Of a stretch of 30,618 nucleotides of DNA, positions 2,487-20,370 are shown piece after piece. This stretch comes from a virus. Taxonomy: Duplodnaviria; Heunggongvirae; Uroviricota; Caudoviricetes. The stretch lies in IMG/VR virus record IMGVR_UViG_2563366903_000024. One strand, 5' to 3'. A model generated the notes under the pieces. That model was not told where the DNA came from. It made no database searches and saw nothing but the letters and a program-made list of their open reading frames with translations. Made by a program: the position numbers and the translations under genes. Every line of letters begins with the position of its first letter. The first letter of the stretch is position 1.

Positions 2487-3318
2487 CCAGTCTCCCCGAA
2501 TTACTCATTTCATGCAGCGATGACACGATGTCACTGACAGGCGTAACAACGCCCCGACGCTGGCTGGTCAGAATATCGGTTTCCGCTCTGAGTTTATCTC
2601 TGGCAGCGTTGATTCTTTCCCGGTCAGCACGAAGTTTTGGTGCTGTTTCCGCCAGAACGTCCAGCGTCAACAATGAGCGTTCAATTGACTCGATACGGGC
2701 AATATTCCGGTCAAGGGCCTGTTCTGCTTTGAGTATTTTGTCGTACAGGGCAACACGGGTTTCCACGTCAGCCGCCTCTTTCAGGTCGGCGAACATTTTT
2801 TTCAGTGTTCCTGTTACTGAAAGTGCGCGGGCACGGGTGAACACCAGTTCATCGAACAGCACCATATCGGACGCATCATCCATGAGGTTATCTGCCTCAA
2901 GATACTTCGCATATCCACGGTGTCTCACGGCGTGGGTGTTACGGTCGCTAAACCGGGCAACGGGGTGAGGATTGCCCGATCTGCTGTTGCGTTTCGTTTC
3001 TGCCGAATTTGCGCAGTTTTTTGCGCATTTTTCATCACTGCCATCATCGCCGTAAGACTCGTCATTACTGGACTCGTCATCAGCTCCATGCGCATTTTTT
3101 TGTGCGCTTTTTTGAGTGTCAATTTGCGCACTTTTTTGCGCATTTTTCTGCGCACTTTCCTCTGTATTTTTGGGGGAGTTTTTGCGCAGTTTTATGTACC
3201 GACGAGCCGTGCCATAGCAGATATTGTTCTGTCGACACCAGTCCTGAAGTTTTATGCCAGTTCTGGCATGTTCGCGTCGGAATGCCTGCTCCAGTTTTTT
3301 CCAGTCCAGCTTTGCCAT
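2467..3318 (-). CDS. terS: Terminase small subunit (N-terminal HTH, low-complexity QKNAQKSAQ middle)
   Basis: 283-aa ORF immediately upstream of and overlapping terL. N-terminal HTH-like segment (NICYGTARRYIKL). Assignment by position and architecture. Confidence 0.6.
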   Translation of the reverse strand: MAKLDWKKLEQAFRREHARTGIKLQDWCRQNNICYGTARRYIKLRKNSPKNTEESAQKNAQKSAQIDTQKSAQKNAHGADDESSNDESYGDDGSDEKCAKNCANSAETKRNSRSGNPHPVARFSDRNTHAVRHRGYAKYLEADNLMDDASDMVLFDELVFTRARALSVTGTLKKMFADLKEAADVETRVALYDKILKAEQALDRNIARIESIERSLLTLDVLAETAPKLRADRERINAARDKLRAETDILTSQRRGVVTPVSDIVSSLHEMSNSGRLDDIPEE

Positions 3319-8008: not shown

Positions 8009-8186
8009 GAATCCTCCCGGCCGGGATAGTGGGTTGAATCAGATAAGGACTGACTGAAGTCTGAAAATACAAAAGACAACTGCCAGTAAAAACGAAAAGG
8101 CCGCGCAGTTGCGCAGTCTCATCACCATCGGGTATTATTCACACGGTGAATAATCGAAACTCACTTTCTTTGTTTTATTCCTTGCC

Positions 8187-8215
8187 GCTCGCGCCTCCCG
8201 GCGCGGGCTTTTTTT
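8187..8215 (+). terminator. Rho-independent terminator on the plus strand (antisense to the late genes)
   Basis: GC-rich stem GCTCGCGCC / GGCGCGGGC with tccc loop, followed by a run of 7 T. Confidence 0.5.
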
Positions 8216-8221
8216 GCATGT

Positions 8222-8250
8222 AAAAAGGCCCCTGCGATGAGGGGCCTGAG
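8222..8250 (-). terminator. Rho-independent terminator downstream of the RM specificity gene
   Basis: 8-bp stem AGGCCCCT / AGGGGCCT with 6-nt loop, followed on the minus strand by TTTTTAC. Confidence 0.45.
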
Positions 8251-8618
8251 AGTATTACCTGGTTTCAGTTAACTGCATAGTGCCGGGTGCCTCCCGGTGA
8301 GTTCAGCCCGGTGCCACCGAACCCGCGTCTTTCACATTGCCTGTGACATTAAAAATGCCAGCCCGCACCAGCCGCCCCGCCGCTGAGGGGGATTCACCAT
8401 GCGTTGCGATTTTTAACAAATTCACCGCCAGCCAGACAATCATCAACTTGCTGAATTGTGAGGTATTTAAAAATTTCCCCGATTAACTGATACCCTGCTA
8501 ACCACCTGTTGTTTTCTTTTTCAGCAACAAAAAAGCCCGCTCATCGGCGGATTCGGCTGCGTGGCAATGTAACCATTCTTATCATGATATGAGGATTTTT
8601 ACGATTGTAAAATGTTTT

Positions 8619-9713
8619 TTAACTGACACCAGAATCATCATAACCGCGACTTGTTATAGCTTGCCTGTATGCGTTCATTTTGCGTTCTGCGTACTGGACA
8701 ACATCTTTAATGACAAGCTTATGAACAACTGAAATAAGGTCATTTATATAACAAAAGTCAGGTGACTTATTTTTCACTGGCAACCAAATAACATCGTTCT
8801 TAATTTTTCTATTACTAACACTATCCCCCCATGAATATTTATGTGAAATAGACCTATAAATACATGAAATAATGCCCAAATAAGCAAACTTTGTCCTTCC
8901 ATCCTCATTGTTAACATAGAGTCGCAAATTATGACTGTCGTTTGAAAAAAAGTCTCGCTCCTGATAAGTTACAACGAATGTCTTACCACCAATAAAAATA
9001 CAGTTCCCTTTTTCCAAGAGTGAGTCATCATAGGCGATATAAGAACTAACAGAGTTATTATCACGGCTAGCACAAAGATAAGGAACATCCCCACTATTTT
9101 CTATGATGTCTCTAGACAATATGTTTCCTGTATTGCACACTGAGAATAACTCAGTAACAGGAAAGCCTGAAAATTCAATATTTTTAAAATGTTCCAGGAT
9201 AAGATAATCTTTTTCCGTTAGTTGGTAATCACTCAGCCCAGCAGCTATCAGGTATGCTTCCAGCTCTTCTATATGGGCCGCTTCCAGCTCTTCTATATAA
9301 TTATCCATAAAAAACCAGTCAATTTCATTATTTTTCACTGGTAATGAGATGAAATATTCTCCATCTCTGAGTTTGGAACTCGATAACTGTTGACCATAAT
9401 TAAAACGCCCCTTTAAAGCTTTATTAATCATACTGGCAACATACAGTCCGCGCTTTGCATTAAAGTCGGACTTACTTGATTTTAATGTAAGAACATGCAC
9501 CTTCATTTCTACGCTGGCACAATAAGGATGATAAAAAGCATCTCCAAAAAAATTAACGCTTATAAAATTTTCATAATGCCTTGCATCATCCATAAACTCG
9601 GTATCAAACTCTCCGATGATACCGTTTTGATCGCTCTTTGCTGAAACACGTTTGATTTTGCCTGGTTTTAATCTTCCTGAGGAGATAAGCGAGCCTGTGC
9701 TCACATAGAACAA
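8619..9713 (-). CDS. HsdS-like specificity subunit (two target-recognition domains around a helical spacer)
   Basis: 364-aa protein with two-fold internal architecture: each variable half ends in a similar segment (ISLPVKNNEIDWFFMDNYIEELE and IWLPVKNKSPDFCYINDLISVVHKL) followed by a predicted helix. Apparent TTG start with AGGA upstream, 60 nt after the methyltransferase stop. Confidence 0.5.
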   Translation of the reverse strand: MFYVSTGSLISSGRLKPGKIKRVSAKSDQNGIIGEFDTEFMDDARHYENFISVNFFGDAFYHPYCASVEMKVHVLTLKSSKSDFNAKRGLYVASMINKALKGRFNYGQQLSSSKLRDGEYFISLPVKNNEIDWFFMDNYIEELEAAHIEELEAYLIAAGLSDYQLTEKDYLILEHFKNIEFSGFPVTELFSVCNTGNILSRDIIENSGDVPYLCASRDNNSVSSYIAYDDSLLEKGNCIFIGGKTFVVTYQERDFFSNDSHNLRLYVNNEDGRTKFAYLGIISCIYRSISHKYSWGDSVSNRKIKNDVIWLPVKNKSPDFCYINDLISVVHKLVIKDVVQYAERKMNAYRQAITSRGYDDSGVS

Positions 9714-9772
9714 ATCGCCAATCCTGAACTCTCCCCACTCAACGCTTCTTAATTTATCGCTGAGCGGGGAAT

Positions 9773-11734
9773 TTACTTTCCCGCAAAATTGTTTTCACCT
9801 TGTTTTTTCAGTAATTGCGAGACCTCCCATGCAAGGTAATCACCTACCGTCTTTTTGAAATCCTCCAGCGTTGGCCTAGCATCTACTGGCCTGGTCTGAT
9901 TCCAGTCCTCACCACTATCAGGATCGATTGTTCCCTCAAAATATTCATCCTCCGTAAAGATATTAAGGCAACCTTTCCCGAAGTGAACCAGATCCACAAC
10001 CTCCTGATAACGCTCTTTTGCACGATCGGCATCAACAAGATTGTTTCTTGCCTTTTTGCGATTAGAGCGAGCGTAGCCGTCATTGGAAAAGTCGATAAAC
10101 TTAACAGCCTGTTTCGCGTTATGCGGAATTTTTACCTGAAAAACGTAAATGTACGTCTGAACGCTTGATTTACCAATAAACAGATCCGCAGGCATTTTGA
10201 TGCTTGCCAGCAAGGTATTTTCCTTGAGTATTTTTTTGTTGTACTCCGTAGCCTTTCCTGTGCCAGCTGAACTCTGGATAATCACTGCAGCATAGCCTTT
10301 ATCCATCATCGACAGCGCCTTCTGCACGAAAATCATGCCGTTACCTTTAGCTGAATACGGAGGATTGAGAATAAATGCGTCCGCAGGGAATTTTTCTCCT
10401 GTTTTCCCAAATCCATACTTGCCGTCAAAATCGGCCAGCGAGTCTTTATTGAGGATATTCGAGCTACCATCCCCCATCAAAATCATATTCAGGATGGCCA
10501 GCATATAAATACTGGATAACACCTCAAGGCCAAGAAGCTGTTCAGCCTTGATTTGCGCTTCCTTAAGTTGTAGTTCGTTCGGTGAGTGAATATTTTCTCT
10601 GGCGTCAATGAGCATTTCATTCATTGCAGCCACAAGCAATCCCGCAGAACCTGTAGCAAAATCCCACACATAGGAATCTTTGTTTACTCTGGCGAGTCGT
10701 GCCAGCAATGTGGCAACATAAGGTGGTGTCAGAACGACGTCATTGAGCTTGTCCTGCGTAAATCCAAGCCAGCGATACATCTCATTAAACAGTTTGCCCG
10801 TAAAATCGGTGGTCAGTCCAATTTTGTAATACTCCCCAAGATCATCAACAACTTTAACAAACACGCGCTTTAACTGGCTTTCACCGTTGACTGGTTTGTT
10901 AATGTTTTCAGTCCACAGCGTATTTTGCAACGAGCGCAAAATCATTTCTCTTTTTGTTTCAGGAACAGCTTTCAGCCTTAAAAAATTCCTTATTTTCCTG
11001 AAAATAATATCACCATCACGCAAGTCCTCCTCCGTTGAAGAGGTCAGTTCTTTTTTATCCAGCGGTGCTAACTTTCCCGGAATCCCCAACGTTGCAATAA
11101 CGGTAGCCACAACAAGGTAAACACGATCGCTTTCACCAAGCCCCTTTTCATTCTGGTAAATATCGTTATTCAGACGGGAAAGTCGCGTGTCTATCTCTTC
11201 CTCTTTGCTGGCCTTGATTTTTTCCAGTTCTTCGGGAGGAAGATTAAGCAGCTTTATCTTGTTGAGAAATCCATCAACATTTTTGTCAGCAAGGAACGAT
11301 AAGTCGGTGAATTCACCAACCTTCTGTCCGGCTCCTAAATTATTCTTTGATACGTACCACACGCCGATTTCATGATGCAGTTCGCCTGTACCATCATCGC
11401 GCCAGCCGGTCATACCAATAGCAATAATATCAGGGTAATTGGTGAACTGAAGAAGTGCGTTGGCATAATGGACTGCGCCATTCACCGCGTATCCATTAAT
11501 ATTTTTAAAATTCCATTCTTTTCTGGCATCTTTGTTCTCAATAATACCGTTGCTGCCAAGTCTGATAAGCCTGTCCTTGTAGCCTTTATACTCGATGAGA
11601 ACGGGATACTGCTTGCCGTATTTGTCCTTAACAAGGAGTTTTACGTCGGGACGATTACCGCCTGCGCCGCCATTTTTCGAAAAATAAGCGTCCAGTGCGT
11701 TATCGATCTCTCCGTTAAGTGATGCATTCTGCAA
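9773..11734 (-). CDS. N6-adenine DNA methyltransferase with N-terminal PD-(D/E)xK-like region (BcgI-A-like); body ORF currently out of frame with its ATG
   Basis: 653-codon ORF with AdoMet motif (VWDFATGSAGLL) and catalytic NPPY motif (ILNPPYSAKG). N-terminal third has a possible nuclease motif (RPD…x16…EYK). No ATG near its 5' end; the frame is open upstream through the 7-nt repeat tract. Confidence 0.7.
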   Translation of the reverse strand: MQNASLNGEIDNALDAYFSKNGGAGGNRPDVKLLVKDKYGKQYPVLIEYKGYKDRLIRLGSNGIIENKDARKEWNFKNINGYAVNGAVHYANALLQFTNYPDIIAIGMTGWRDDGTGELHHEIGVWYVSKNNLGAGQKVGEFTDLSFLADKNVDGFLNKIKLLNLPPEELEKIKASKEEEIDTRLSRLNNDIYQNEKGLGESDRVYLVVATVIATLGIPGKLAPLDKKELTSSTEEDLRDGDIIFRKIRNFLRLKAVPETKREMILRSLQNTLWTENINKPVNGESQLKRVFVKVVDDLGEYYKIGLTTDFTGKLFNEMYRWLGFTQDKLNDVVLTPPYVATLLARLARVNKDSYVWDFATGSAGLLVAAMNEMLIDARENIHSPNELQLKEAQIKAEQLLGLEVLSSIYMLAILNMILMGDGSSNILNKDSLADFDGKYGFGKTGEKFPADAFILNPPYSAKGNGMIFVQKALSMMDKGYAAVIIQSSAGTGKATEYNKKILKENTLLASIKMPADLFIGKSSVQTYIYVFQVKIPHNAKQAVKFIDFSNDGYARSNRKKARNNLVDADRAKERYQEVVDLVHFGKGCLNIFTEDEYFEGTIDPDSGEDWNQTRPVDARPTLEDFKKTVGDYLAWEVSQLLKKQGENNFAGK

Positions 11735-11802
11735 CTTGTAATCAAGCCTGTAAGATTTAAGCCATGAGTTCGCCAGTTCGGTAATTTCCGGCTCAACAGA
11801 TT

Positions 11803-11931
11803 TTACAGACTTTCTTGATTTACTGCTGGTCGCTGGTCGCTGGTCGCTGGTCGCTGGTCGCTGGTCGCTGGTCGCTGGTCGCTGGTCGCTGGTCGCTGGT
11901 CGCTGGTCGCTGGTCGCTGGTCTGGCAGCAT
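11803..11931 (-). other. Leader ORF from the RM gene's true ATG through the heptanucleotide tract to a premature stop (OFF-phase product)
   Basis: SD AAGGA lies 7 nt upstream of ATG 11931-11929. Translation reads MLPDQ(RPATSDQ)n through the repeats and stops at TAA 11805-11803, in the 0 frame versus +1 for the methyltransferase body. Confidence 0.6.
11825..11922 (-). repeat. Perfect tandem heptanucleotide repeat, 14 copies (GCTGGTC on plus, GACCAGC on coding strand)
   Basis: Counted directly: 98 bp of uninterrupted 7-nt periodicity between the ATG at 11931 and the methyltransferase ORF body. Confidence 0.95.
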
Positions 11932-12105
11932 AAAATCATCCTTTTATGAAAATCAACGTTTTTTGAGCACTCGCACACAAAAAATTACCGCATTGGTTGC
12001 AACGACAACCTGCATTTTGCGGAGCATATGACAAATAAAGTACGGGTGCGTTGAGGATGCCAGACACATCAGAGGTGGCGGGAGATTACTCCCCTGCCTG
12101 GTCTC

Positions 12106-12261
12106 TTACTTCTCAGATTCGTAGTCTACGAAGACAGCGACCTCCGTCTGGCCGGTTCGGATTCGTACCTCGCAGAAGTCTTTCCTCGTTACCAGTGCTA
12201 TCACTACGACGGTAATACAGATGACGATCAGGGCGATTAACATCGCCTTTTGCTGCTTCAT
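12106..12261 (-). CDS. hok: Hok/Gef-family type I toxin (small membrane peptide)
   Basis: Unlisted 51-aa ORF MKQQKAMLIALIVICITVVVIALVTRKDFCEVRIRTGQTEVAVFVDYESEK, very like E. coli Gef/HokC. SD AAGGAG before the ATG. Confidence 0.8.
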   Translation of the reverse strand: MKQQKAMLIALIVICITVVVIALVTRKDFCEVRIRTGQTEVAVFVDYESEK

Positions 12262-12431: not shown

Positions 12432-12464
12432 CAGCTATTCTACAGTAAAAACTCGCGCTTTCAA
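12432..12464 (-). promoter_or_regulatory. Sigma70-like promoter immediately downstream of Q (candidate late promoter pR' or hok promoter)
   Basis: Minus strand TTGAAA (12464-12459), 16-nt spacer, TAGAAT (12442-12437). The -35 overlaps the Q stop codon. A 10-bp inverted repeat (12383-12392 / 12409-12418) follows. Confidence 0.4.
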
Positions 12465-12886
12465 TTTCCCGCACGTCCGGCAAACTGACTGGCCTGTGAT
12501 CCTGATGGTTCACGCTCAACGTACCTGTCCATTTCCAGCTTTACTCCCTGCATGATCAACATCCCCTCAATAATACCTTCTGCTTTTTGCAGTACCCGCC
12601 CGGCCCAGCAATCAGAGCGCCCATGCTTACGGCCCAGTGACATAAGCGTCATCCCGAACACATAATAATCATACAGAAAATCATGCAAATCGCTGTTGTT
12701 GACGTTCAGTTGCGCCATGCAATTGCTGATAATCAGCGCATCGTCATCGGTACACTGAGGCCGTGATTTAACCTTTGACGGGATCAGCCCCTTAAATCCG
12801 GCGGCAATGGGCGACCAGCTCACATCCTCATGATTATTGGCCACCCATGCGCCCCAGCGTTCAAGCACCTGCTGAATATCACGCAT
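12461..12886 (-). CDS. Q: Late-gene antiterminator Q (phage 21 / DLP12 QuuD type)
   Basis: Protein [45 protein letters not shown]… closely resembles E. coli QuuD. Start at ATG 12886 with SD AAGGGGAAAG, overlapping the NinH stop by 8 nt; the longer track ORF start is rejected. Confidence 0.8.
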
Positions 12887-13079
12887 CAGAGTCTTTCCCC
12901 TTATCCCATCCACGGTGAACCATAAGGACACCGTTGACGACGGCGTGCCGTTTGCCTTCTTTATCACCGACATATTTTCTGACCGTAGCACGATTACAGT
13001 TCAGTTTTCGTGAAACTTCAGTCATATTGCCTCGTGCCTGGATAAGCAATTCCGGTATTGTTTGAATTGTGGCGTTCAT
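12879..13079 (-). CDS. ninH: NinH-like DNA-binding protein
   Basis: 66-aa protein [37 protein letters not shown]…[14 protein letters not shown], like lambda NinH. Confidence 0.8.
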
Positions 13080-19034: not shown

Positions 19035-20117
19035 TTACCCCCTGAAACCCGGCGGAATTTCGGTGTCCGGTTCAGAAATGTGATTCACGCAACGCAGGCT
19101 GACTGCGCCAGCCTTCGGCAGCGACCACGGATTTTCGAAATTCCTGTTCGGGCCAAAAAACGTCGATGCCTGCTGAACAAATTCAGTTCCCGCTTTCCCG
19201 GTAGCCTCCAGGTATCTTGCGTAACGCCTCACGCCATCCAGCACGACATCCGGTGACACCCCTTCGCGTAATCTGGCCCTCCAGGCATTGAACGCGGATT
19301 TCTTCGGGTTTGCCCCTGCCCGATGCGGATATTCACGCCAGACCCGTTCGAACACGTCAGGATAATCAACTCGTCCCGCAGACGGTCCCGGCATCGCCCG
19401 GGTTAACCCAATCGGCTTCCCGCTCATCGCGGAATCGGCTTCAGGCTGCTGCGGTTGGCGTTGTTGCTCCGGTTCGACGATCAGCACCTGCTGCACACAA
19501 CGCCCGGAATCTGCTTCCGGTGTCGTGCCAGCTGGTCCTGGACGTTCAGTCAGAACAGGACAAAAATCCCCCTGCGGGTCCGTGGCGATTTTTTCGCCAT
19601 GGACCAGAAGGGTTTTATCCCTTTCCTGTTCTTGTTCCTGTTCCTGTTCTTGGCTTGAAAGAGGCTCTGAAGGGGCTTCAATTTTCCGACATGATTCACG
19701 TCTGACATCCAGGTGGAAATCATCCTTATATCTATCATAAAAGGATGATAAAAAAGGATTTTCCAGCAACACGGAATATTCATTTCTTACCCCAGCACAA
19801 CGGTTATCGCCAGGTTTCAGCGATTCACCAACCTGCCATGCTGCCATTTCATGCACCCATACAACCTCAGAATCATGGTCATAGCTGCAAAAACCAGCCT
19901 CGCAAGCCATTTGAAGCCCCTTAGAAGCCCCTTCAGGATCAAGTCCGGTTTCGTGAGCAATGTACAAAACAGGCAGGTAATAAAGGCCCAGCATATTGGA
20001 ATGAGGCGAGGTCATCATATACAACGCCACTACCATACATTCCGGACCAGACTTCCTTAGTTTTCTCCCTGTTTCGCCTAACCAGAACTGAGGTGAAATT
20101 GTTGCGTAATTACGCAT
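19035..20117 (-). CDS. Replication initiation protein (O-like position; acidic linker with (QE)n; DnaT-like C-terminal region)
   Basis: 360-aa ORF between cII and the DnaC-like gene. Internal low-complexity linker (SSQEQEQEQEQERD…QQRQPQQPEAD). Assignment by position and architecture. Confidence 0.6.
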   Translation of the reverse strand: MRNYATISPQFWLGETGRKLRKSGPECMVVALYMMTSPHSNMLGLYYLPVLYIAHETGLDPEGASKGLQMACEAGFCSYDHDSEVVWVHEMAAWQVGESLKPGDNRCAGVRNEYSVLLENPFLSSFYDRYKDDFHLDVRRESCRKIEAPSEPLSSQEQEQEQEQERDKTLLVHGEKIATDPQGDFCPVLTERPGPAGTTPEADSGRCVQQVLIVEPEQQRQPQQPEADSAMSGKPIGLTRAMPGPSAGRVDYPDVFERVWREYPHRAGANPKKSAFNAWRARLREGVSPDVVLDGVRRYARYLEATGKAGTEFVQQASTFFGPNRNFENPWSLPKAGAVSLRCVNHISEPDTEIPPGFRG

Positions 20118-20370
20118 AGTCCCCTCGCATACAAGATTTACTCCATACCGCAGACGGTCCCGGTATCTCCCGGGTTAACCCAATCGGCTTCAGGCTGCTG
20201 CGGTTGGTGTGACTGCACATTGGTGTGACTGCACATCTTCACAGACGGTCCCGGTATCTCCGGGTTAACCCAATCGGCTTCAGGCTGCTGCGGTTGGTGT
20301 TGTTGCTGGCGAAATTCTTCCAGATGTGGCAGAATTATTCCCGTGTATTGCTCCATGCCCTGCCTGAATA

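What the first reader, a model, noticed from the sequence alone, without database searches (positions are those of the whole stretch)
9257..9298. 24-bp tandem duplication inside the predicted helical spacer of the specificity subunit
The 18-nt sequence CTTCCAGCTCTTCTATAT occurs twice with a 24-nt period, giving the in-frame peptide duplication IEELEAAH-IEELEAYL between the two variable halves. In Type I S subunits (EcoR124I vs EcoR124II) the copy number of a short in-frame repeat in the central helix changes the spacing between half-sites of the recognition sequence. A second, recombinational route to altered specificity could therefore exist alongside the ON/OFF tract.
Basis: partly seen in the sequence, partly recalled or inferred. 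Interest (0 to 1): 0.5.

Follow-up and report, generated by a model that had tools for sequence, protein, structure and literature searches.

The report
Copy-variable spacer repeat in specificity gene
A 24-base unit present twice in the connecting helix of a prophage restriction enzyme's DNA-recognition subunit occurs one to four times in otherwise identical genes of other strains, so it probably acts as an adjustable ruler that changes which DNA sites the enzyme recognises.

Summary
An exact 19-nt repeat with period 24 (9256-9274 and 9280-9298) encodes IEELEAAH-IEELEAYL on the minus strand. It forms 16 of the 25 residues of the helix joining the two target-recognition domains of an HsdS-like subunit. 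The host system is not classical Type I. It is a BcgI-like Type IIB enzyme (fused nuclease-methyltransferase plus S subunit, no HsdR) in the late region of a lambdoid prophage, and it is switched OFF here by a (GACCAGC)14 tract. Two units is the ancestral, family-wide state, not a recent duplication. The units evolve in concert. AlphaFold extends the helix from 25 to 41 residues in a 4-unit allele. A change in recognition-site spacing, as in EcoR124I/II, is inferred and not shown; BsaXI helix truncations that left the spacer unchanged are a caveat. In passing: the S frame has no start codon and lies -1 to the RM frame, behind a G_GGA_AAG slippery heptamer, the stop codon and a conserved hairpin with compensatory base changes. 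This cassette recurs in 14 diverged lineages and suggests programmed frameshifting to an RM-S fusion.

The parts
9273..9296 (-). Repeat unit 1, ATAGAAGAGCTGGAAGCGGCCCAT = IEELEAAH. This is the unit that is added or lost in other alleles.
   Evidence: The 3- and 4-unit alleles contain exact extra copies of this 24-mer.
9249..9272 (-). Repeat unit 2, the terminal unit, ATAGAAGAGCTGGAAGCATACCTG = IEELEAYL. Its first 17 nt are identical to unit 1.
   Evidence: It is the only unit left in 1-unit alleles (L299, L301).
9243..9317 (-). Central helix CR1 of the S subunit (model residues 153-177, DWFFMDNY-IEELEAAH-IEELEAYL-IA). It links TRD1 to TRD2.
   Evidence: AlphaFold2 model, pLDDT 92.3, helix H153-177. 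The 4-unit allele gives H136-176, 41 residues.
8619..9782 (-). S (specificity) reading frame, TRD1-CR1-TRD2-CR2. The conserved N-terminus (GKVNSPLSDKLRSVEWGEF) begins at the slippery site. The first canonical start codons are only at 9713 (TTG) and 9704 (GTG).
   Evidence: Pfam Methylase_S twice. PADLOC Specificity_II. Foldseek matches HsdS structures 1ydx, 1yf2, 7bst_A and BsaXI 8w0p_C.
9330..9737 (-). TRD1, the variable N-terminal target-recognition domain (approximately model residues 13-147).
   Evidence: Other alleles replace this half while keeping the repeat and TRD2 (H21-H23).
8769..9173 (-). TRD2, the C-terminal target-recognition domain (approximately model residues 201-334).
8649..8756 (-). 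C-terminal helix CR2 (model residues 340-375, 36 aa). It is the expected antiparallel partner of CR1, and its length does not change with unit number.
9776..9782 (-). G_GGA_AAG, a canonical -1 slippery heptamer formed by the last two sense codons of the RM gene (inferred frameshift site).
   Evidence: C_CCA_AAG, G_GGA_AAG and A_AAA_AAG are the most efficient -1 motifs in E. coli (PMC4066793).
9732..9770 (-). Hairpin of 13 bp (arms 9770-9758 and 9744-9732) that starts 5 nt after the heptamer (the family-conserved 11-bp core starts 6 nt after it). Inferred frameshift stimulator.
   Evidence: RNAfold -25.8 kcal/mol, z = -5.5. Conserved in 14 lineages with 98% of cells paired and 3 compensatory pairs.
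9773..11824 (-). RM subunit: PD-(D/E)xK nuclease fused to a gamma-type N6-adenine methyltransferase. The frame stays open up to the heptamer tract.
   Evidence: PADLOC REase_MTase_IIG, E = 6e-228, profile positions 36-717 of 721. Pfam N6_Mtase plus a weak VRR_NUC hit. Motifs RPD..IEYK, DFATGSAG and NPPY are visible in the translation. A phage record calls it 'BcgI alpha chain-like'.
11825..11922 (-). (GACCAGC)14 ON/OFF tract inside the 5' end of the RM gene. With 14 copies both upstream ATGs (11939-11937 and 11931-11929) are out of frame, so the gene is OFF.
   Evidence: Related loci carry 8 to 120 copies.

Best explanation
The two 24-bp units are a length-variable module of the CR1 helix. CR1 connects the two target-recognition domains of the S subunit of a prophage-borne, BcgI-like Type IIB restriction-modification enzyme. 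The units share 17-19 identical nucleotides, so unequal crossing-over or replication slippage can add or remove whole 8-codon units without breaking the frame. Natural alleles with 1 to 4 units show that this happens repeatedly. Each unit lengthens the helix by about 12 A and turns it by about 80 degrees, so TRD2 is displaced relative to TRD1. The same two half-sites should then be recognised across a different number of unspecified base pairs. By analogy with EcoR124I/II, where 4 residues correspond to 1 bp, I expect about 2 bp per unit. What is shown: the repeat, its position in the helix, the allelic series, concerted evolution of the units, and the predicted helix extension. What is inferred: the change of specificity and its size. 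The effect can only appear when the (GACCAGC)n tract puts the RM gene in frame. In this window the gene is OFF.
For: Exact repeat in frame. It lies in the central helix of a high-confidence HsdS-like fold.

Allelic series:
- The window-type gene has 2 units in 18 complete E. coli genomes and 3 units in 2, with no other difference.
- The 4-unit allele shows 0 mismatches over 486 + 654 nt outside the repeat.
- A second TRD1 background has 1, 2 and 3 units.
- Salmonella has 2, 3 and 4 units with 367/367 identical residues outside the repeat. Microcystis has 2 and 3 units.
- 3- and 4-unit alleles occur on both the N and D variants of one residue, so there was more than one event.
- Among the 120 best homologues, 84 have 2 units, 18 have 3, 4 have 4 and 14 or fewer have 1.

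Concerted evolution: synonymous codon choices differ between lineages but are shared by the units within a lineage.

Structure: AlphaFold predicts one uninterrupted helix of 41 residues in the 4-unit allele against 25 in the 2-unit protein, with CR2 unchanged.

Precedent: two versus three TAEL repeats in CR1 give GAA N6 RTCG versus GAA N7 RTCG in EcoR124I/II, and engineered hybrids obey the same rule (PMC3874165).
Against: - No methylome or cleavage data exist for any allele, so the specificity change is untested.
- In the Type IIB enzyme BsaXI, deleting 8 to 32 residues of CR1 in a half-S subunit left the N5 spacer unchanged. The authors doubt that helix length alone sets the spacing (PMC9159934). 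Those were C-terminal truncations of a homodimerising half-subunit, not insertions between two covalently linked TRDs.
- CR2 does not change length, so extra units must alter the coiled-coil register. The pTM of the 4-unit model falls from 0.74 to 0.64.
- Two units predominate, so other numbers could be transient or mildly deleterious.
- With only two copies the switching rate must be far lower than that of a true simple-sequence contingency tract.
Confidence: 0.6

Rival explanations
1. The length polymorphism is tolerated and neutral. The helix is a flexible tether, TRD spacing is set by the RM subunits and the DNA, and unit number does not change the recognised sequence.
For: BsaXI CR1 truncations kept the N5 spacer (PMC9159934). 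CR2 length is constant while CR1 varies from about 17 to 41 residues, which a rigid two-helix ruler would not easily accommodate.
Against: The units are kept nucleotide-identical within lineages across very distant taxa, and the same kind of change recurs in at least six backgrounds. The homologous change in EcoR124I/II does alter specificity. The helix is predicted rigid and continuous with pLDDT of 85 or more.
Confidence: 0.2
2. Unit number modulates activity rather than specificity. Only two units give a productive (RM)2S geometry, so other numbers weaken or inactivate the enzyme. That would make the repeat a second, slower OFF switch or an attenuator of a self-toxic nuclease.
For: Two units is the overwhelming ground state (84 of 120). 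A prophage nuclease is potentially harmful to its host. Inter-domain confidence is lower in the 4-unit model. The locus already carries an ON/OFF tract, and decayed copies exist, such as a 1-bp deletion in strain E110019.
Against: 1-, 3- and 4-unit alleles are found in many isolates, with intact reading frames and with RM genes in the ON frame. Examples are L002 (3 units, ON), L005 (3 units, ON) and L006 (3 units, ON). In EcoR124 both the two- and three-repeat forms are fully active.
Confidence: 0.15
3. The repeat is a chance similarity or an assembly artefact.
For: Tandem Repeats Finder did not report it.
Against: No comparable repeat appeared in 200 shuffles. The same arrangement is present in dozens of independent complete genomes, viral contigs and a deposited phage genome. 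The peptide repeat is conserved across phyla.
Confidence: 0.01

Closest known systems
EcoR124I / EcoR124II (and EcoDXXI, EcoPrrI): Type IC HsdS with TAEL repeats in CR1
   Same: A short in-frame tandem repeat sits in the first conserved helix between the two TRDs. Copy number differs between otherwise identical genes, through unequal crossing-over. In EcoR124 this changes the spacer from N6 to N7 (PMC3874165).
   Different: Here the unit is 8 residues (24 bp), not 4 (12 bp). The observed range is 1-4 rather than 2-3. The S subunit serves a Type IIB nuclease-methyltransferase fusion, not HsdM plus HsdR. The gene is carried on a temperate phage. No recognition sequences are known.
BcgI and BsaXI: Type IIB (RM)2S restriction-modification enzymes
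   Same: An RM polypeptide with an N-terminal PD-(D/E)xK nuclease and a gamma-type N6-adenine methyltransferase, plus a separate HsdS-like subunit with TRD1-CR1-TRD2-CR2 (PMC3874165; PMC11997821).
   Different: No sequence-level match to solved structures. CR1 is much shorter than in BsaXI (25 versus 42 residues). An SSR ON/OFF tract lies in the RM gene. The S frame lacks its own start codon. Unit-number polymorphism has not been described for Type IIB S subunits in the literature searched.
NgoAV and other phase-variable Type I systems with repeats in hsdS or hsdM
   Same: Repeat-length changes in R-M genes switch expression on or off, or truncate S to a half-subunit. Related alleles of this locus (L007-L009) carry an 8-nt GGACTCGC tract just after CR1 that toggles a half-S against a full S.
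   Different: Those are frameshifting simple-sequence repeats. The 24-bp unit is always in frame, so it changes protein length and not expression.
dnaX, IS3/IS911 and phage tail chaperone G/GT: -1 programmed frameshifting (relevant to the side observation)
   Same: An X_XXA_AAG heptamer, a short spacer and a stable hairpin. Two products share one N-terminal part (PMC4066793).
   Different: Here the frameshift would join an enzyme to its specificity subunit. The zero-frame stop codon directly follows the heptamer. Neither the 2016 recoding review (the first 300,000 of its 429,602 characters were searchable, PMC5009743) nor my literature search turned up any frameshift in an R-M system.

Membership tests
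Classical Type I R-M system (HsdR, HsdM, HsdS) | A separate HsdR helicase-nuclease subunit encoded with the system | tested here: not met
   No such gene lies next to the locus in any of 10 annotated E. coli contexts. None of the 56 annotated features in the 41-kb stretch examined of phage PhiR12_3 (whole record 72 features, 62 kb) is an HsdR.
Classical Type I R-M system (HsdR, HsdM, HsdS) | HsdM is a methyltransferase without a nuclease domain | tested here: not met
   The TIGR00497 hsdM model scores only 36 bits against a cutoff of 243. The protein matches REase_MTase_IIG end to end, E = 6e-228, and has an N-terminal RPD...IEYK motif.
HsdS-like specificity subunit (Methylase_S fold) | Two TRDs separated by a central helix, followed by a C-terminal helix | tested here: met
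   PF01420 matched twice, E = 2.8e-24. AlphaFold pLDDT 92 with helices H153-177 and H340-375. Foldseek probability 1.0 to 1ydx, 1yf2, 2y7c, 7bst_A and 8w0p_C.
Type IIB (BcgI-like) R-M enzyme | A single RM polypeptide with a PD-(D/E)xK nuclease and a gamma N6-adenine methyltransferase, plus a separate two-TRD S subunit | tested here: met
   PADLOC REase_MTase_IIG and Specificity_II. Motifs RPD..EYK, DFATGSAG and NPPY. Depositor's note 'BcgI alpha chain-like'.
Type IIB (BcgI-like) R-M enzyme | (RM)2S stoichiometry, and cleavage on both sides of a bipartite site | not testable with these tools
   This needs purified protein or cleavage mapping.
EcoR124-type spacer-length variation | An in-frame tandem repeat inside the CR1 helix | tested here: met
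EcoR124-type spacer-length variation | Copy-number differences between otherwise identical S genes | tested here: met
   1 to 4 units with 0-1 other differences.
EcoR124-type spacer-length variation | [quoted passage not shown] | not testable with these tools
   No methylome data were found for any allele.
Simple-sequence contingency (phase-variable) locus | A long tract of a short unit whose length changes shift the reading frame | tested here: not met
   This applies to the 24-bp repeat: it has two copies and is always in frame. The neighbouring (GACCAGC)n tract does meet the feature, with 8-120 copies and ON or OFF frames.
-1 programmed ribosomal frameshift cassette (side observation) | A zero-frame X_XXY_YYZ heptamer, a 5-9 nt spacer, a downstream structure, and a -1 ORF without its own start codon | tested here: met
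   Synthesis of the fusion protein itself could not be tested.

The most novel reading that the evidence does not exclude
The repeat would be one layer of a multi-layer diversity generator carried by temperate phages. Layer one is an ON/OFF heptamer tract. Layer two is a 1-4 unit helical ruler that resets half-site spacing. Layer three is exchange of TRDs at the repeat. Layer four, in some alleles, is an 8-nt tract that toggles a half-S against a full S. All layers would be expressed through an obligatory -1 programmed ribosomal frameshift, so that S is made only as an RM-S fusion and the RM to RM-S ratio is fixed. I found no description of recoding in any restriction-modification system, yet the cassette is conserved from E. 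coli phages to Helicobacter, Microcystis, Apibacter and Sulfuricurvum.
Probability: 0.45. Interest if true: 0.85.

Novelty: new variant of a known kind. Interest (0 to 1): 0.6.

Why it matters
If unit number sets the spacer, one phage-borne enzyme family can produce a series of specificities (the same half-sites at N, N+x, N+2x and so on) by a single recombination step. That would change which incoming DNA a lysogen restricts and which host sites are methylated. The natural allelic series of 1 to 4 units, identical elsewhere, is a ready-made experiment. It can address an open structural question raised for EcoR124 and BsaXI: how the length of one helix of the S coiled coil translates into base pairs. 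It would also give a simple handle for engineering Type IIB specificities. The start-less S frame behind a top-efficiency slippery site matters for two reasons. These genes are currently mis-annotated as split or pseudogenes. A frameshift would also be a new way to set subunit stoichiometry in an R-M enzyme.

Tried and rejected
- Tandem Repeats Finder at minimum score 30 did not list the repeat. The repeat finder and a k-mer scan did.
- Sequence searches of S and RM against PDB chains found nothing. Only the fold search placed S.
- NCBIfam gave no family for S and only sub-threshold hsdM and MAD2 hits for RM.
- The literature leads did not help. The one full-text hit for GACCAGC with phase variation is a PCR primer. 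M.EcoGIX, listed for O111 strains, is a plasmid single-strand methyltransferase and unrelated. The O111 methylome paper does not list this locus. The pR' region paper does not mention it. The survey of repeats in Type I genes does not cover it.
- The degenerate pattern GAAGAGCTGGAAGCNTAYYTG was too loose for the genome and metagenome collections. The viral scan was useful.
- The 1-bp shorter allele of strain E110019 was checked as a possible natural RM-S fusion. Its deletion lies in the 3' part of S, not at the junction.
- The RM-S junction is invariant in all 16 other copies of the window-type allele seen, so it gives no information by itself. More distant relatives were needed.
- I considered TTG 9713, GTG 9704 or ATT 9722 as the real S start. 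I think these unlikely, because they would remove a conserved, confidently modelled N-terminal helix and beta-strand. I cannot exclude them.
Full report
OBSERVATION. The + strand carries GCTTCCAGCTCTTCTATAT exactly twice, at 9256-9274 and 9280-9298, with period 24. On the minus strand the two units are in codon register. Unit 1 is 9296-9273, ATA GAA GAG CTG GAA GCG GCC CAT (IEELEAAH). Unit 2 is 9272-9249, ATA GAA GAG CTG GAA GCA TAC CTG (IEELEAYL). Both lie in the ORF 8619..9713(-). The repeat finder reports the pair. A k-mer scan shows that the only other short-range direct repeats of 15 nt or more in the window are the heptamer tract at 11825-11922 and a 16-nt pair at 20204. None of 200 shuffled windows had any.

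WHAT THE GENE IS. The ORF has two Methylase_S stretches (PF01420, E = 2.8e-24). An AlphaFold2 model built on 79 homologues has mean pLDDT 92.3. It shows TRD1, a central helix at residues 153-177, a short helix, TRD2, and a C-terminal helix at 340-375. The two units occupy residues 160-175, which is 16 of the 25 residues of the central helix (CR1). Foldseek matches Type I HsdS structures (1ydx, 1yf2, EcoKI 2y7c, EcoR124I 7bst_A) and the S subunit of the Type IIB enzyme BsaXI (8w0p_C), all with probability 1.0.

The upstream ORF, 9773..11734(-), is not a plain HsdM.
- It matches the PADLOC model REase_MTase_IIG over its whole length (E = 6.4e-228, profile positions 36-717 of 721).
- S matches the PADLOC model 'Specificity_II'.
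- The hsdM equivalog model scores far below its cutoff.
- The translation shows RPD...IEYK (a PD-(D/E)xK motif, with a weak VRR_NUC hit), DFATGSAG and NPPY.
- A deposited phage genome with an identical S gene annotates the RM protein as 'BcgI alpha chain-like'.
- No HsdR is encoded nearby in any of ten annotated contexts, nor in the 41-kb stretch of that phage that was examined.

The system is therefore a BcgI-like Type IIB enzyme, an RM fusion plus an S subunit. It sits between the Q antiterminator and hok on one side and the nanS-p-like esterase and lysis genes on the other, in a lambdoid prophage. In Stx phages this is the position of stx.

Megablast of the S gene against 5,426 complete E. 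coli genomes found 20 full-length matches. Eighteen have two units. Two (SCU-104 and JNEC-KY173) are 24 bp longer and differ in nothing else; they carry three units. The protein database adds a 4-unit allele of the same gene. At the DNA level it has 0 mismatches in 486 + 654 nt outside the repeat. 3- and 4-unit alleles occur on both variants (N or D) of one polymorphic residue, so there was more than one event.

Other backgrounds show the same variation.
- A second TRD1 type joined to the same TRD2 occurs with 1 unit (P0015; L299 and L301 at DNA level), 2 units (L004) and 3 units (L005).
- A third TRD1 type has 3 and 4 units (L006, P0016, P0014).
- Salmonella has 2, 3 and 4 units with 367/367 identical residues elsewhere.
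- Microcystis has 2 and 3 units with 344/348 identical residues elsewhere.
- Twelve IMG/VR viral contigs of this lineage have 2 units ten times, 3 units once and 4 units once.

THE TWO-UNIT STATE IS ANCESTRAL AND HOMOGENISED. Among the 120 best of 3,035 homologues, 84 have two units, 18 have three, 4 have four, and at most 14 have one. The typical peptide is IAELEAER-IAELEAYL, in Helicobacter, Pasteurella, Elizabethkingia, Apibacter, Sulfuricurvum, Microcystis and others. So this is not a recent duplication in this gene. At the nucleotide level, lineages differ in synonymous codon choice but the units within a lineage agree. Examples are ATAGAAGAGCTGGAAGC here, ATAGAGGAACTTGA(G/A)GC in L006, GTCGCCGAGCTTGAGGCT in L282 and ATAGCGGAGCTGGAAGC in Apibacter. 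That is the signature of concerted evolution through repeated gain, loss or conversion. In a few lineages the units have drifted apart (Sulfuricurvum, L264).

STRUCTURE WITH MORE UNITS. The 4-unit allele is predicted (pLDDT 90.9) with a single uninterrupted central helix of 41 residues (136-176). That is exactly 16 residues more than the 2-unit protein. CR2 is unchanged at 36 residues. The pTM drops from 0.74 to 0.64. The tools return no coordinates, so I could not measure the TRD-TRD distance.

MECHANISM. The closest precedent is EcoR124I/II. There, two versus three TAEL repeats in CR1 change GAA N6 RTCG to GAA N7 RTCG, and engineered hybrids follow the same rule (PMC3874165). By helix geometry (my inference), 8 residues add about 12 A and a net 80 degrees. 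Scaled from EcoR124, where 4 residues give 1 bp, I expect about 2 bp per unit. The 19-nt identity provides the substrate for unequal crossing-over or slippage. With two copies the rate must be much lower than that of the heptamer tract. It is nevertheless at least comparable to point substitution over 1.1 kb, since alleles differ by the indel alone.

There are caveats.
- No methylome is available.
- In BsaXI, truncating CR1 of a half-S subunit by 8-32 residues left the N5 spacer unchanged (PMC9159934).
- CR2 is not adjusted, so the coiled-coil register must shift.
- This copy is OFF (see below).

I put 0.6 on the full explanation, 0.2 on a neutral tolerated polymorphism and 0.15 on an effect on activity rather than specificity.

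CONTEXT: THE ON/OFF TRACT. (GACCAGC)14 at 11825-11922 lies just after two ATGs (11939-11937 and 11931-11929) that are in two different frames. Two of every three tract lengths are therefore ON. With 14 copies both frames stop soon after the tract, so the RM gene is OFF here. Related loci carry 8 to 120 copies (mostly 23 to 120). L002, L003, L005, L006 and L007 are ON. L001, L004, L008 and L009 are OFF.

SIDE OBSERVATION: A PROBABLE -1 FRAMESHIFT JOINING RM TO S. The S frame is open from 9794. It encodes a conserved N-terminus (GKVNSPLSDKLRSVEWGEF) that the model folds with confidence. There is no ATG, GTG or TTG before 9713. The RM gene ends GCG GGA AAG TAA. The S frame is -1 relative to it and reads GGG AAA GTA AAT. 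So a canonical G_GGA_AAG heptamer (9782-9776) sits directly before the stop codon. The 11-bp hairpin core conserved across the family begins 6 nt after the heptamer; in this window the stem extends to 13 bp (arms 9770-9758 and 9744-9732), so only 5 nt separate it from the heptamer (-25.8 kcal/mol, z = -5.5).

The same layout recurs in 14 diverged lineages: E. coli phages, six IMG/VR viral contigs (L280, L282, L283, L287, L288, L290), two further loci from public assemblies (L264, L267), H. pylori, Microcystis, Apibacter and Sulfuricurvum.
- The heptamer is G_GGA_AAG or G_GGA_AAA in most, and C_CCA_AAG in H. pylori, where the encoded residues differ.
- The S-frame codon that overlaps the stop is GTA or ATA in twelve lineages, ATG in one and GTG in one.
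- In some lineages stop codons in the S frame lie immediately before GGG AAA.
- RNAalifold finds the hairpin. 98.1% of cells pair, against 37-55% when the partners are slid. Three pairs show compensatory changes. The covariation score exceeds all 500 shuffles.

A second RM type in E. coli uses A_AAA_AAG, then one codon, TAA and a different 11-14 bp hairpin. Its -1 frame encodes the conserved KKAVNSRLAELEREF. One relative (L286) is an in-frame RM-S fusion with the junction ...ALGKIDS..., and it has lost the hairpin.

C_CCA_AAG, G_GGA_AAG and A_AAA_AAG are reported as the three most efficient -1 motifs in E. coli (PMC4066793). An engineered EcoKI M-S fusion is functional but needs additional free M (PMC3510504). 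That fits a mixture of RM and RM-S giving an (RM)2S-like complex. I found no report of frameshifting in any R-M system. The fusion product itself is not shown. Reinitiation at a near-cognate codon, or an N-terminally truncated S, are the alternatives. If the frameshift is real, the heptamer tract controls RM and S together.

OTHER VARIATION AT THE LOCUS. Alleles that share TRD2 and the repeat but carry a different TRD1 have their homology breakpoint at the repeat (H21-H23). Alleles with a different TRD2 carry an 8-nt GGACTCGC tract just after CR1. It yields either a half-S (L007, L008) or a full-length S (L009, P0038, P0045).

VERDICT. The finding is real. It is a new variant of a known kind: an EcoR124-style spacer repeat, but with an 8-residue unit, a 1-4 unit range and concerted evolution, in a phage-borne Type IIB S subunit. 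The functional consequence still needs a methylome experiment.

Noticed in passing
window 9732-9782 (minus strand); related loci L264, L267, L278, L280, L282, L283, L287, L288, L290, L294-L297: The S frame has no start codon and is -1 to the RM frame. The RM gene ends in the slippery heptamer G_GGA_AAG followed by TAA, and a 13-bp hairpin follows 5 nt after the heptamer (its family-conserved 11-bp core 6 nt after it). The heptamer, spacer and hairpin, with compensatory pairs, are conserved in 14 diverged lineages. This suggests programmed -1 frameshifting that makes an RM-S fusion.
   Followed up: yes
L276, L277, L289, L006 (RM type 2 junctions); L286: A second RM type uses A_AAA_AAG, then one codon, TAA and a different hairpin (AAACTCCCG.../...CGGGAGTTT). 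Its -1 frame encodes the conserved KKAVNSRLAELEREF. L286 is a natural in-frame RM-S fusion (one extra A in GGGAAAAA) that has lost the hairpin. It could also be a homopolymer sequencing error.
   Followed up: partly
window 11825-11939: A (GACCAGC)14 tract follows two ATGs that lie in two different frames, so two of three tract lengths are ON. 14 copies is OFF. Related loci carry 8 to 120 copies (up to 840 bp), which is unusually long for a phase-variation tract and would encode a (DQRPATS)n N-terminal tail. PGAP annotates an artefactual 'YXWGXW repeat-containing protein' on the opposite strand and starts the RM gene at an internal TTG.
   Followed up: partly
L007, L008, L009, L012, L013 (alleles with a different TRD2): An 8-nt GGACTCGC tract (three units encode GLADSRTR) lies immediately after the central helix. 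Depending on its length, S is either truncated to a half-subunit (L007, L008) or full length (L009, P0038, P0045, P0054). This is a second, frameshifting switch that is absent from the window.
   Followed up: partly
window 9249-9312 versus hits H21-H30: Alleles with a different TRD1 or a different TRD2 share only the repeat region with the window gene. The repeat therefore also marks the recombination breakpoint for TRD exchange.
   Followed up: partly
window 8619-9713 and L001, L003: PGAP splits this S gene into a C-terminal CDS that starts at the ATA of unit 1 plus a 'partial' pseudogene. Older records start it at ATT 9722. Both look like consequences of the missing start codon.
   Followed up: partly
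window 12106-12261 (minus strand): A Hok/Gef-family toxin ORF (MKQQKAMLIALIVICITVVV...) lies between the Q antiterminator (12461-12991) and the RM gene. It is frameshifted in some related prophages.
   Followed up: no
window 8009-8618: There are no tRNA genes in the window (ARAGORN found 0). Related prophages carry an Ile-Arg-Arg tRNA cluster and a truncated methyltransferase remnant between S and the esterase gene, or stx2 in L008.
   Followed up: no
window 3008-3158, 19623-19649, 20204-20236: Other tandem repeats reported by TRF: the 12-nt unit TTTGCGCA(G/C)TTT in two blocks, TTCCTG x4.5, and an exact 16-nt pair TTGGTGTGACTGCACA.
   Followed up: no
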